Source: Lytechinus pictus (taxonomy: Eukaryota). From it: DNA of 64,000 nt. A program made the translations under genes and the position numbers. The stretch spans positions 15,440,001 to 15,504,000 of the forward strand of contig NC_087250.1 in NCBI RefSeq assembly GCF_037042905.1. Reading direction: 5' to 3'. The notes below the pieces were generated by a model. The model saw nothing but the letters and a program-made list of their open reading frames with translations. It had not been told where the DNA came from and made no database searches. This document shows positions 13,301 through 19,300 of the stretch, one piece after another; position 1 is the stretch's first letter, and every line of letters begins with the position of its first letter.

Positions 13301-16300
13301 AGGTAAGTAAGGGTAGTTTCATCAATCTTAAAACTGATTTTTAAAATTGATAGAAGAAAGGTCCGTTTTGGAAGAAGTCTCTCTAACAAACATTCTCTCT
13401 TGGACGAAGGTCAGGGTGGTTTCATCAATCTTAACATTGATTTTAAAATTGGCATAAGAAAGGTCTGTTTTGGAAGAAGATATCTTGGACAAAGGCAAGG
13501 ATGAACGAACAAAATCAAAACTTTAACACTTCATAATTCCTTAAACTAAAGCATATAAGAGAACTCGTAATATTCTCCTTTATGTAGTAGAAATTATCGT
13601 TGTTATGTCATCATCGTCATCATCATCACCATCATCACAATCATCATTCTTTGACTGATTTTCATCAAACCTTCAATATTTTTTTTGAATTTTTCTATTT
13701 GTATTTAAAATCAACCTATTGTCAGTGTTAACTTCCCCTTCCAGACTCAGCTTATGTATTCGTCGACCTGTATGTACATGTATAATAATATATTGGAGGA
13801 ATGCTTTTCCAAGTACATTGTATTGCATCACTATTTGCTCTACATTCTTTAAAGACTGCTACATGAAATAATGTTTGTGTAGTAGATTATTACACAGGAC
13901 TTCACTGTTCTAGGTTAGTTGAGAGCTTTTTTGCCTATGACCAAAAATAAAACCACAATTCGTTGAGCAAAATGTTCCCTGATATAATATATATTCATCA
14001 ATGTTTCCTCAATAAATTGCAGGGTTCCCAGCTTTTCAAGAAAAGTAAATTCCCTGACTTTTCCCTGATGAAGTTTAAAAATTCCCTAAAATAATTATTC
14101 AAACCCATTCCCAGTTTCGCATGCTTTCTAAGTTGTTGCAGTGAATTACATGTCCGTGTATTTTCACTATAAAAATTTGTACTGCAGTCAAAGAGGCTTC
14201 CCTCAAAAACCGCCATAACCAGTCATTCAATGGATGTTGTTTTGATATGCAACAAAATATAACAGAGTCTGACTGACTGCCGTGCTTTCGACCTTTGGGC
14301 CAATCAAAATTCCCAGATTTTTCCCTCATTTGAGGCATTTTCCCCTGACTTGAGGTACAGTACATGTATTTTTTTATTCCCTGACTGGAAAGAAGTAAAT
14401 TAATTTTCCCTGATGGGCTGGGTACCCTGAGTGTGTGATGTGCATACCAGCTGATGAACAAATAAGCTTTAGATCATACTCAAACTACAATTTATCTGTG
14501 ATAGGAGATGGAGGGGGATCATTATTTCAAAGGTCAGATGGCTTTGATTAAAGCAGATACTGTACACTAATAAATATCATCCCAGTTTAGATTGGGCTTT
14601 CTGCCAAATAGTATTAGATGCACCCGAGATTTTTTTTTATTAGGAAACGATGGCTTAGTTGATTGTGTTATGATGCCAAATTTATGCATTTAAAAGACAT
14701 GTTTAACAAAAGACATACACTACGTGTACTACATATTCTAGATTTACTACATATGCCACATATATCACATATACCATATATACTACATATACTATATATA
14801 TACCCAGTTGTTGTGAGTCCGGACAGGTTGTGTGTCCGGACTATCAATTTTAGAAAGTCATTTGGAAAAATTTACAAGCGAAGTTTCATCAATTTTTAGT
14901 ACAGAATGTTAGGAAATATTATAGAGAACAAAATAGAAGATGATTACAACTATTGAATTCATATTTTTTGTGTAATCCAAAGAAAAAAAAGAAGGTTTCA
15001 AAAATATAAAGTGTCCGGACACCGGACCCCCCATCCTACTATATATACTACATATACTAATGTACTACATATACCAGTGAGCACCAAATTTCCATTTATT
15101 GGGCAATCAAATCAAATAAATCAATCAAAACAAATATTCAAGCATCTGATTTTTCTGAAATGTTTTGTGTTGACTCTGGCAAAATTGCTTGTGTTTCGTT
15201 GTTCAGCAAGTAAAAGCGCAATATGACACTATCAATTAAAAAATGATACCAAATACTCTATCAGAAGATGTTAAACAATATTTTGATTGATTGATTGATA
15301 TTCTTTTATTTTTTATATTTTATTGATAGTATTAATTATCATTCATAAAAAAAAAAGACACAAATGAAGGTACATGTACATTTAAAGTATACATACATTA
15401 CATGGAATATAGTAGAATGATACAATATTGACCATAATCTGGAAAATATTTGAAAAGATTACAGATGAATGAATAAGTAAGAATAATCATAAAATAATAC
15501 AATATTGACCATAATCTGTAAAATATTTGAAAAAGATTACATATGAAAGAATGAGGAAAACTTATCGTAAAATAATACACTATTGACCATAATCTGGCAA
15601 ATATTTTAAAAATATTACTTATGAATGAATAAGGAAAAATAATCGTAAAATACTATATTGACCATAATTTGGAAGGAAAAGCCTTTTGAAGATATCGGCC
15701 ATAATGCCCTAAAATTACCAAATGGTGATTTTCTCTTTAAAATACTGCAATTCTGCCACATATAATCTCGTTGACTGTTTTTATTTCCCTTCTTAGGAGC
15801 CAATCAGGAAGTCGATGCTGATGACGGAAGATAAGGCCGTCAAGCGGGAAGCACCGGAAGTCTTCAAACATATCCTTTACAACTATGTACAGTAGCATCT
15901 GAATACAACATTAGGGAGAAAAACAACCTTCAGAAGTTGTAAATTCTGTAGGTTTCCATGGCGATGAAGAAGGGTGTAGTGGCTATACAGTGGCTGTGGG
16001 TGATTTTAAGTTCAGTGTTGACCTTTTGGTGTCGGTGTTAGGTCAATTTTTACACAATTATAGCACCAAACATAAAACGAAGATGGTCCCGAAAAGTCAC
16101 TCACTACATGTAGTTGTTGAGATGTCAATAATGTGATCTGGATCAGATTTACAAATTCTGAATAAATTTTGGACCAAGGGGAAGCAATCCAAATTTCAAC
16201 ACCGACACCAAGGCCAACACCGGACTTGAAATCACCCAGTACACCATTTATTCTTTCGTGTGCATGTTTGTGTTCCGAAAAGGAACCACCCATTCTCTTG

Positions 16301-19300
16301 AAGACAACAAGAACACGCTTGTTGAACGTTGTGTTTGGGTGGTACTTTTCGGGACCAATTCATGCACACGAAAGAATACATACATGTAGGCCCGTATTCT
16401 GAAGTCGGGTTTAACTCAGGTATAAAGTTGTGGTTTAAGTATGGATAGCCAATTGTTACATAAAATTTCACTGACAGTAGAGATAATCATGTTTCAGTTC
16501 ATTTGACTCTCAAATCATTCATAATTGTCTAGGAAGTATAAATAGATGATTGTCTTCACCATTGAAGAATCAGGAAAGAGCACAGTAAATGTTAGAAACA
16601 TACAACTTATAAACATTTGACACTTTTGGCTTCCCATAATTTTAGCACAGAGTTAGACCATGGTCTGAGTTAAACCTGACTTCAGAATACGGGCCATAGA
16701 GTACCTTGAAACCCCTACCCTCTAGAACTGTCTCACGTTAGGCTATATAAATAGATGTGGGAAGCTGGAAATGAAAAAGAAAAAATGTAATTAAAATATA
16801 ATTACAATAAAAAGCCTTGGATGTTCATGGCTCAACTACTAAACCTCTTGAGTATTTGTACATGTACAGTTAAGTTCCAATATTAATGAAATTAAAGACT
16901 ATGGAGGCAGGCTTAACTTCATTTTCTTCTGAAAATTCATTGTCTACATTTTTCCGATAAATGAGGGCTGTGTGATTCAATATAATAAATATACTTCAGA
17001 AGAAATGATAATAATGGTACTTGTACTTGCTTATGGAGTGCTTAATGCTTACTTTATGAAGAGATATTATGTGATACATAAGCAAGTATGATTATTTATT
17101 ATGATATATCAGAAGTCTTTTGAGCGCTTAACAGTAATGCAGCATGATTAGCCTGGCTTCAGTAGAGCTACCATTATGGGGGCTGTTTCATAAAACTGTT
17201 CGTAAGTTAAGAGCGACTTTAAGAACAACTGGTGAACCTTTCTTATGTGTTAAACAATCACCAATGAATATACATGTACCATTTACTTCAAGAAAGGATC
17301 ACCAGTCGTTCTTAAAGTCGCTCTCAAATTACGAACAGCTTTATGAAACACCCATCTGGGTTGAGTGCAGCACAATGCGGATGAATTTCTTGCTGAAAAA
17401 ATACTGTCGCTCATGAGATTTGAACCCATGGCCCTCTGATTTGAAAAGTGAGAGTCCAAAAGTTTCCAGACATATTCACGACACAAACCATTTCATACAT
17501 ATACATGTAATGTGAATGTCATCTGAAATTTCCTTGACCTTTGACCTTCTACTGACCCAATGTTACATGGGTGACCGGGTCATCAAGGGTCATACCAGGG
17601 ACACGGCCTTGCTTGACCTGGTCGTCAAGGGATGGTCAATCGTTGCACTGAGAGATGAGGTCTACATTCAGCTTTGCAGGCAAACATCGGACAACTACCA
17701 AGAGTAAGTTTAATAATACATGAGATTTGTATAGTGCACTTTCCATCTTGATTAGATGCTCAAGGCGCTTCAGAGCAGAACAACAACAAAAGCTATTCAC
17801 ATATAATACATGTCTGAACAATAAGTCGATGTCTATCAAAAAGAACTCTTAAACCGGTATGTTTTCAGGTTGCCCTTGAAGGTGTTTACTGAAGTCTGGG
17901 TTTGGAGAAATCAATTATTTTTTAGGGGGAGGGAACTGCCTTGGGGGTCCATTTCATAAATTTGTTATAATAACAAATTTGCAATAACAGTTTAAAGCTA
18001 CTGAAATCATGTAATTTGATTGGCTAATTTTGAACTTAAATAGCAATTGGGCATTTTTATTTTAACAAGTCATTATGAAACAAGACCCAACACTGTGTGT
18101 GGTCTCTCATTGACTGTGTAAAGTTAGGTTTAAAATAATACAATTATTAATAATACAAATATATATATTAGCCTATAATTTTATTTATACAGAGAAACTA
18201 AAATGTTTTGAAAGGAAATATATCAATGTACAGTTGAGTACATGCACATAATAACTTTACTATATAAATGTAATTGTTATACTTGCTTAGCTCTTCACAT
18301 GACTTTGATTCTATCGGTGTACTGACTATGTTGAATTTATTTTTTTTCCCATTGTAGGGACAGCTTACGTTCAGGCTGGGAGCTGATGGCTATTCTACTC
18401 TTCTTCTTTCCTCCCTCCGTGTCGTTTTATCCCTACTTAGAGAGTTTCATTGTCAAACATTTATCAGGAGACTTTGATACTAGAAAGGTTTGTTCAATCA
18501 TTTTTACTTATTGCATCGATTTGAGTTTGAATTTTATTTTAACGTTTACGTTTAATCTCAATTCCTTGAATTCTGTGTCTGGTTGATTTTTACCTTATCA
18601 TGTTTTCCTGAACTTGATTTTAACCTTAAGACTAACTTAAAATAATCATGTATCATTTGATAATGATAGATATCATTTTTAGTTATGCAAAATGCGGAAT
18701 GCTTAATCGCAGTGAAATAAAACTGAAGAAAATAAATGGATACAGCAAGAAATACACTGTATAGGGAACATCCAAGGACAAGAATTCAGCAGGGCTGGGT
18801 ATTGTGCAATTATTTGGAGAAAGCCACACAAAAAAATCAGTTTTCATAGTTTAAGCTTACATAGAAAGTAAAAATTATGACATATCTAAGGAAATTTGTT
18901 CAAAGTGATCATTTTTGGAAATACATTGCAAATTTTATTTTATTTTAATTTGTTTTTGTGTTGTATCTCACAGGTGACAGTGAAAGACTATGCTGAGCAG
19001 TGTATGAAACGATTGGACAGGGTCGCTCAGTTTGGGGCTAGGAAGGGCAACAAGAAAATCACTTCAGATGAAATCGCAATAGCAAAGGTAACATCAAATA
19101 TCAAATATACATGTATGGTTGTATGGCTGGGTTGATGAAACCTTGTATCTCAAAATAAAAAAATAAAAATTGTGGGCAGTTTAGAAAAGGCTGTATTTTG
19201 AAAATATAGCAGTGGTGGCAGTCTTATATTGTCTGAAAATAGTCTCCTGGTACCTGTGAAGAACTCTTTCGAGGCAAAAGAAGGTTGCTACCCATGTTAT

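What the first reader, a model, noticed from the sequence alone, without database searches (positions are those of the whole stretch)
15870..17552. U12-type AT-AC minor-spliceosome intron inside the MyTH4 domain of ARHGAP39
Seen: the exon ends ...TTC AAA C and is followed by ATATCCTTT. 1.68 kb later there is TTCCTTGAC, with the branch A about 15 nt upstream of a terminal AC, and no AG acceptor. Joining C|TG gives [11 protein letters not shown], matching the family MyTH4 motif FKLIQ.YMGDR. Established: ATATCCTT, TCCTTRAC and AC are the U11/U12 consensus signals, and AT-AC introns are rare and often mis-predicted. Inference: retention hits an in-frame TAG at 15893-15895, removing most of MyTH4 and all of RhoGAP, so minor splicing could gate GAP output.
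Basis: partly seen in the sequence, partly recalled or inferred. Interest (0 to 1): 0.75.

Follow-up and report, generated by a model that had tools for sequence, protein, structure and literature searches.

The report
Minor intron shared with myosin VII
A sea-urchin RhoGAP gene (ARHGAP39) has an intron with the full signals of the rare minor spliceosome at the same codon and phase as the minor intron of the human deafness gene MYO7A, so both likely inherited it with their shared MyTH4 domain, probably before animals arose; a regulatory role is untested.

Summary
Confirmed: 15870-17552 is a U12-type AT-AC intron (ATATCCTTT; TTCCTTGAC, branch A 15 nt before AC), phase 1, in sea-urchin ARHGAP39. 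The eight 3' exons joined match Lytechinus pictus RefSeq XP_054757128.2 at 423 of 423 residues, so the public model already encodes this join. No junction reads were obtained.

New here: the split codon aligns without gaps to Ala1776 of human MYO7A, whose listed minor intron (IVS38, AT-type donor) starts after c.5326, the same residue and phase; MYO7B fits too. A jellyfish-like ARHGAP39 has a U12-type GT-AG intron at this codon, seen once spliced (L066) and once apparently retained (L068). Human and mouse ARHGAP39 are not on the minor-intron list, and 78 redundant genomic loci (bird, mostly lophotrochozoan-like) lack the intron. MyTH4-RhoGAP proteins also occur in fungi and amoebozoans.

Best reading: an old minor intron that travelled with the MyTH4 domain into two otherwise unrelated gene families and was often lost. 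Ordinary intron, neat evolutionary marker; four full-text searches found no description of the shared site.

The parts
15797..15869 (+). 73-nt exon upstream of the minor intron; ends with the first base of the split Leu codon
   Evidence: 24 of 24 residues identical to RefSeq proteins
15870..17552 (+). U12-type AT-AC intron, 1683 nt, phase 1 (splits L823 of XP_054757128.2)
15870..15878 (+). U12-type 5' splice site ATATCCTTT (predicted U11/U6atac pairing site)
   Evidence: consensus as in PMC6717393 supplement rows
15893..15895 (+). in-frame TAG reached if the intron is retained
17530..17538 (+). U12-type branch site TTCCTTGAC, predicted branch A at 17537
   Evidence: the same nonamer is in the listed MYO7A branch sequence and in L068
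17551..17552 (+). 3' splice site AC; other ACs at 17544-45 and 17555-56 would shift the frame
17553..17703 (+). exon downstream of the minor intron (YMGD and RDE motifs of MyTH4); followed by a GT-AG phase-2 intron conserved in 77 of 80 related loci
13006..13197 (+). ARHGAP39 coding exon (residues 735-798)
18358..18487 (+). ARHGAP39 coding exon (MyTH4)
18974..19087 (+). ARHGAP39 coding exon (end of MyTH4)
21491..21648 (+). ARHGAP39 coding exon (start of RhoGAP)
23578..23836 (+). ARHGAP39 coding exon (RhoGAP)
24432..24626 (+). last coding exon with stop codon
1195..5412 (+). 5' coding exons of the same gene, approximate tblastn limits 1195-1425, 2146-2265, 2931-4289, 5152-5412; no WW-coding exon matched in the window
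   Evidence: ends not curated

Best explanation
The stretch is a phase-1 intron with U12-type AT-AC signals in the MyTH4-coding part of sea-urchin ARHGAP39, predicted to be removed by the minor spliceosome, and it sits at the same aligned codon and phase as the minor intron of human MYO7A, likely because both genes inherited it with a common MyTH4 domain. Mechanism of removal (established for the class, inferred here): U11 pairs with ATATCCTTT, U12 with TTCCTTGAC bulging A17537, U4atac/U6atac and U5 catalyse, and the AC 15 nt downstream is used, restoring Leu823. History (inferred): the intron was present in a MyTH4-coding DNA segment before the MyTH4-RhoGAP and the myosin VII tail lineages parted; it stayed AT-AC in urchin ARHGAP39 and in mammalian MYO7A/MYO7B, became GT-AG in a jellyfish-like ARHGAP39, and was lost in vertebrate and many protostome ARHGAP39 genes. 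Retention would give an early stop and likely RNA decay, lowering mRNA somewhat, as for other minor introns.
For: Shown: signals and coordinates; best of 61 joins; 423 of 423 identity of the joined exons to RefSeq XP_054757128.2, and the same [11 protein letters not shown] string in 12 of 12 named Lytechinus and Strongylocentrotus proteins examined; no gap across residues 840-856 in 47 of 47 homologue rows. Six of the seven introns in the 3' part are GT-AG with major-type donors. S. purpuratus has U11, U12, U4atac, U6atac genes and 274 minor introns (PMC11347168 supplement). Shared site: phmmer and a profile search both align F-K-L to F86-I87-A88 of 5mv9_A (MYO7A) without gaps through YMGD (E 1.7e-19); five published variants (L1744, Q1798, L1839, P1846, Q1855) give offset 1688 by my hand count, so A88 is Ala1776; the listed minor intron is IVS38, hg38 chr11:77203218-77204075; chr11:77203120 is c.5229, so the last exon base is c.5326, phase 1 of codon 1776; listed exon ends TTG (human) and TAG (mouse) fit Ile+G. 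MYO7B: F-V-A aligns here, listed donor ATATCC after TCG/TTG, IVS35, compatible but not pinned by coordinates. Cnidarian-like orthologue: L068 has a 357-nt intron at the same codon, GTATCCTTT ... TTCCTTGAC ... AG with the branch A 12 nt from the end; L066 (99.8% identical) shows the exact spliced join; its protein is sister to a Sanderia malayensis protein, FastTree support 1.0. MyTH4-RhoGAP proteins occur in sponge, ctenophore, Amoebidium, Pigoraptor, four fungi, two amoebozoans and Anaeramoeba. Parallel gain of minor introns is judged very small (PMC10639083 passage).
Against: No RNA reads across 15869/17553 and no snRNA genes of this species were seen (no genome held). RefSeq proteins are models, and their supporting evidence was not seen. 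78 of 80 related loci are genomic and lack the intron, though they are redundant (61 distinct peptides) and mostly lophotrochozoan-like, so they are not 78 losses. Only two ARHGAP39 lineages with the intron were seen here. Human and mouse lists hold no ARHGAP, PLEKH or MYO15 gene, so other MyTH4 domains have no listed minor intron; MYO10 has one, but from recalled gene limits it lies far 5' of its MyTH4, and I do not count it. A second shared site (urchin phase-2 intron at E873 against MYO7A intron 39) is only recalled; it is bracketed between c.5392 and c.5516 and was not pinned. No tree of MyTH4 domains across families was built, so donor and direction are unknown.
Confidence: 0.75

Rival explanations
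1. The intron is a real U12 intron, ancestral in ARHGAP39, but the match to MYO7A/MYO7B is a coincidence or a parallel gain at a favoured site.
For: Other human and mouse MyTH4 genes have no listed minor intron here; no second shared intron position was pinned; the two domains are only distantly alike (E 2e-10 pairwise).
Against: Exact residue and phase match among roughly 450 possible sites in a 150-residue domain (arithmetic), same rare class, same AT-type donor and same branch nonamer; minor-intron gains are reported as rare (PMC10639083 passages).
Confidence: 0.17
2. Regulated switch: slow or signal-dependent splicing of this intron sets how much active RhoGAP is made. This can be true together with the best explanation.
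For: [quoted passage not shown]
Against: No measurement in urchin; L068 is one contig and could be genomic; repeated loss in ARHGAP39 of vertebrates and protostomes argues against an essential control; PMC10639083 argues in its title and passages for largely neutral minor-intron evolution.
Confidence: 0.2
3. The AT-AC intron is removed by the major spliceosome (U2-type AT-AC), or the real transcript uses nearby GT-AG sites.
For: U2-dependent AT-AC introns exist (PMC1557818, abstract start); 14 open GT-AG/GC-AG joins can be drawn; no reads were obtained.
Against: Full ATATCCTTT donor and TTCCTTGAC branch site at 15 nt; the five best GT-AG/GC-AG joins printed all lose most of YMGD and score at least 32 bits lower; RefSeq models of three urchins give the AT-AC product.
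Confidence: 0.03

Closest known systems
U12-type (minor-spliceosome) AT-AC introns of animals, as listed in MIDB (PMC6717393 supplements) and PMC11347168
   Same: ATATCCTT donor, TCCTTRAC branch site close to a terminal AC, one minor intron among major ones, phase 1.
   Different: Nothing in anatomy. The host gene is not on the human/mouse list.
Human MYO7A intron 38 and MYO7B intron 35 (minor introns in the second MyTH4 domain of myosin VII)
   Same: Same aligned codon and phase for MYO7A (pinned), compatible for MYO7B; ATATCC donor; TCCTTGAC branch.
   Different: The host is a RhoGAP that shares only the MyTH4 domain with myosin VII; intron length 1683 against 858 and 236 nt.
Minor introns shared within gene families by duplication (sodium and calcium channels, E2F, MAPK, matrilins; PMC6865273 passages)
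   Same: One ancestral minor intron kept in several descendants.
   Different: Here the descendants are different multidomain families linked by one shuffled domain, not whole-gene paralogues.
ARHGAP39 (aliases Vilse, CrGAP, KIAA1688 recalled); RefSeq XP_054757128.2 of Lytechinus pictus
   Same: WW, MyTH4, RhoGAP; 423 of 423 identical in the 3' eight exons.
   Different: A bird genomic locus has this whole region as one 187-codon exon (L034).

Membership tests
U12-type intron | 5' splice site RTATCCTT at the exon end | tested here: met
   ATATCCTTT at 15870
U12-type intron | Branch site TCCTTRAC about 10-20 nt before the 3' end (range recalled) | tested here: met
   TTCCTTGAC 17530-17538, A at -15
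U12-type intron | Terminal AC (or AG) restoring the reading frame | tested here: met
   best of 61 joins; 423 of 423 with RefSeq protein
U12-type intron | Removed from the RNA at these sites in this species | tested here: inconclusive
   No reads obtained; RefSeq models and the spliced cnidarian-like contig L066 are indirect
U12-type intron | Minor snRNA genes in the organism | not testable with these tools
   No genome held; present in S. purpuratus per PMC11347168 supplement; none in the window
U12-type intron | Dependence on U11/U12/U6atac | not testable with these tools
   needs knockdown
U12-type intron | intronIC or PWM score above threshold | not tested
   no matrices on hand; consensus match and a Markov chance estimate only
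ARHGAP39 | WW + MyTH4 + RhoGAP architecture and orthology | tested here: met
   Pfam on P0062 (WW 23.7 bits, below its 26.9 cut-off); named orthologues; tree
Homologue of MYO7A intron 38 | Same aligned codon and phase | tested here: met
Homologue of MYO7A intron 38 | Same intron class | tested here: met
   ATATCC donor and TCCTTGAC branch listed for MYO7A; its terminal dinucleotide was not seen
Homologue of MYO7A intron 38 | Continuous descent shown by intermediate taxa or a second shared intron site | tested here: inconclusive
   cnidarian-like ARHGAP39 has it; no non-mammalian myosin VII gene seen; second site not pinned

The most novel reading that the evidence does not exclude
This minor intron is a heirloom of the MyTH4 domain itself: it was in place before a DNA-level shuffle put MyTH4 both into the myosin VII tail and into the WW-MyTH4-RhoGAP family, which already existed before animals, fungi and amoebozoans split, so one U12 intron has survived over a billion years in two unrelated gene families and ties ARHGAP39's MyTH4 to the second MyTH4 of myosin VII.
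Probability: 0.6. Interest if true: 0.55.

Novelty: new member of a known kind. Interest (0 to 1): 0.42.

Why it matters
The intron itself is ordinary and already built into the public gene model. Its position is the point: if shared by descent with MYO7A intron 38, it is a case of a minor intron carried between gene families by domain shuffling, a rare genomic character for tracing MyTH4 domains whose sequences are too diverged for trees, and a minimum age for one minor intron. It also offers a natural comparison (kept as AT-AC, switched to GT-AG, lost) for asking whether minor introns matter for expression, and warns that gene predictors barred from AT-AC will break MyTH4 genes at this helix.

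Tried and rejected
No whole genome held. Run search listed no holder on record as RNA; no reads were laid, so expression and retention in this species stay open. A Pfam call failed on a frame slip and was replaced. Search for long MyTH4 proteins (myosins) by shared words found none among 20 candidates, so no cross-family MyTH4 tree. A structure prediction had not finished; no fold search was run. Full-text searches for MYO7A c.5326 and c.5327 gave 0 papers; the boundary was fixed by coordinates instead. Idea that MYO10's minor intron shares the site: dropped, its listed coordinates fall, by recalled gene limits, far from the MyTH4 exons. Second shared intron site: not pinned. Read-through signature of an unspliced U12 donor in stored proteins: 4 motif hits, none an insertion at the junction. 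Other U12-like motifs in the window (6953, 12632, 53195, 61323 on +; 9864, 41617 on -) are not at ARHGAP39 exon ends and match the number expected by chance; those beyond the gene were not traced. GT-AG alternatives rejected. Look-ups of earlier findings by place, by sequence and three word sets returned nothing.
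Full report
Observation. Single motifs are common by chance in 64 kb (about 3.3 donor octamers expected per strand, 5 seen on +), but both at homology-fixed exon ends is about 2e-8. Among 61 open in-frame joins, the AT-AC join scores 114.5 bits against an orthologue profile without echinoids; the best GT-AG join scores 81.7 and removes most of YMGD.

Gene. The window encodes a sea-urchin ARHGAP39. The eight 3' exons joined are identical at 423 of 423 residues to Lytechinus pictus RefSeq XP_054757128.2, residues 735-1157; the intron splits Leu823 in phase 1 and the other six introns are GT-AG. 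Pfam finds WW (below cut-off), MyTH4 845-949 and RhoGAP 984-1122. Twelve of 12 named proteins of L. pictus, L. variegatus and S. purpuratus carry the same junction string, and 47 of 47 homologue rows have no gap at residues 840-856 of P0001. So public models already encode the join. No reads were laid and no genome is held, so splicing in this species and its snRNA genes were not seen; S. purpuratus has all four minor snRNAs and 274 minor introns (PMC11347168 supplement rows).

Mammalian comparison. ARHGAP39 and two recalled aliases have 0 hits in 8 supplementary files of PMC6717393; its human/mouse table has no ARHGAP or PLEKH gene but lists MYO7A, MYO7B and MYO10. MYO7A's minor intron is IVS38, hg38 chr11:77203218-77204075, MYO7B's is IVS35. 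PMC12685424 Table 2 gives chr11:77203120 as c.5229, so the last exon base is c.5326, the first base of codon 1776 (assumes no intron in the 97 nt between). phmmer with an urchin stretch and hmmsearch with an 18-sequence profile both align F-K-L to F86-I87-A88 of PDB 5mv9_A with no gap through YMGD. Counting by hand along the printed chain, five published variants (Leu1744, Gln1798, Leu1839, Pro1846, Gln1855) all give offset 1688, so A88 is Ala1776. The urchin ARHGAP39 intron and MYO7A intron 38 therefore interrupt the same aligned codon in the same phase, and both have an ATATCC donor and a TCCTTGAC branch site. MYO7B has F-V-A at this place and listed exon ends TCG/TTG, which fit but were not pinned. 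MYO10's minor intron was first suspected to match and then dropped: from recalled gene limits it lies far 5' of MyTH4.

Other animals. One scan of metagenome contigs with an alignment of the downstream exon matched 344 stretches, 237 relatives, of which the best 80 were kept and are all that I examined. Seventy-seven have a GT donor at the next (phase-2) site and no intron at the Leu site; L034 is a bird-like genomic exon of 187 codons spanning all three sites. These 78 are redundant (61 distinct peptides among the 80) and mostly closest to mollusc or unnamed proteins. The other two belong to one gene: L066 is an uninterrupted 955-residue WW-MyTH4-RhoGAP reading frame, and L068 is 99.8% identical over 2241 nt but holds a 357-nt intron at exactly this codon, phase 1, with GTATCCTTT, TTCCTTGAC (branch A at -12) and AG; L066 shows the exact join. 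The protein is sister to a Sanderia malayensis (jellyfish) protein with FastTree support 1.0 in a tree of 134 of 166 proteins (32 dropped for incomplete coverage). L068 has no other intron through the stop codon, so it is most simply a transcript retaining only the minor intron; a genomic origin is not excluded. The site is thus at least as old as the cnidarian-bilaterian ancestor in ARHGAP39, with an AT-AC/GT-AG subtype switch and repeated loss.

Age of the domain arrangement. Names were looked up for 20 of the 142 new representatives. They include sponge, ctenophore, Amoebidium, Pigoraptor, Endogone, Entomophthora, Wolfiporia, Catenaria, Pellita, Vermistella and Anaeramoeba (grouping of these taxa is recalled). 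If the intron is shared by descent, it predates the parting of the two MyTH4 lineages and so the animal-fungal split. Three earlier AI findings report AT-AC introns in fungal RhoGAP genes of this kind, two naming the MyTH4 region and one a matching site in sponges; I could not see or test their positions, so they are leads only.

How it works. Shown: signals, frame, position matches. Inferred from the class: U11/U12 recognition, U6atac catalysis, choice of the AC 15 nt from the branch A; ACs at 17545 and 17556 would shift the frame. Inferred history: inheritance with the MyTH4-coding DNA, direction unknown. Retention gives a stop after 8 codons with five junctions downstream, so decay is more likely than a truncated WW protein; human minor introns are about 2-fold more retained and are exosome targets (PMC4066798, abstract only). 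Nothing here shows regulation, and the frequent loss argues against an essential gate.

What is known. The class is textbook, and family-wide sharing by gene duplication is described (PMC6865273 passages; no mention of myosin or shuffling among my terms). Full-text searches ARHGAP39 + minor intron, ARHGAP39 + U12 (1 unrelated), MyTH4 + U12 (1 unrelated) and MyTH4 + AT-AC found no account of this intron or of the shared site. The library lacks most subscription papers; the MIDB, IAOD and Larue-Roy intron tables for urchins and bioRxiv supplements were not seen and may list the intron without comment. Papers seen: supplement rows of PMC6717393, PMC9636908, PMC11347168; passages of PMC10639083, PMC6865273, PMC12685424, PMC3125325, PMC4245769, PMC6244211, PMC13746763, PMC13602164; term searches without relevant hits in PMC7367187, PMC7507305, PMC7821283; abstract of PMC4066798; listing only for PMC3728624 and PMC1557818. 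None was read whole.

Verdict. Real U12 AT-AC intron (about 0.96), already implied by RefSeq; shared ancestry with MYO7A intron 38 likely (about 0.75 to 0.8); regulatory gating possible but unshown (0.2). New member of a known kind; interest 0.42, resting on the cross-family position.

Noticed in passing
window 13126-13503: Three decayed tandem copies (about 105 nt period) of the 3' end of exon 13006-13197 with its donor site, in the following intron; possible cryptic donors.
   Followed up: no
window 24551-25207: Three or more decayed tandem copies (about 165 nt period) of the end of the last coding exon and stop region, in the 3' UTR.
   Followed up: no
window 15997-16238, 16246-16381, 16389-16695, 17181-17353: Four inverted-repeat elements (arms 29-64 nt, 84-97% complementary), MITE-like, inside the minor intron.
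   Followed up: no
window 37371-37442 (-): One tRNA match, the only Rfam hit in the window.
   Followed up: no
L068 76-432: U12-type GT-AG intron at the same codon in a jellyfish-like ARHGAP39, apparently the only intron left in the contig.
   Followed up: yes
L034 2933-3493: Bird-like ARHGAP39 has the MyTH4 start as one long exon: three neighbouring introns present in the urchin are absent together.
   Followed up: partly
window 17704 (intron after exon 17553-17703): The phase-2 GT-AG intron is conserved in 77 of 80 loci and aligns to MYO7A Arg1827, where I recall exon 39 ending; not pinned.
   Followed up: partly
proteins P0176 and P0130: Both lack the helix around the junction; P0176 is sister to an Entomophthora protein and may be a gene-model error at a non-canonical intron.
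   Followed up: no
window 52829-57145 (+): A second gene with what looks by eye like a fibronectin-III exon and a later membrane-spanning exon (ORFs); an ATATCCTTT at 53195 lies within or beside it and was not traced.
   Followed up: no
P0001 residues 942-948: The S. purpuratus model carries seven extra residues that match intron-end sequence at window 18953-18973, absent from the L. pictus model; alternative acceptor or model artefact.
   Followed up: no
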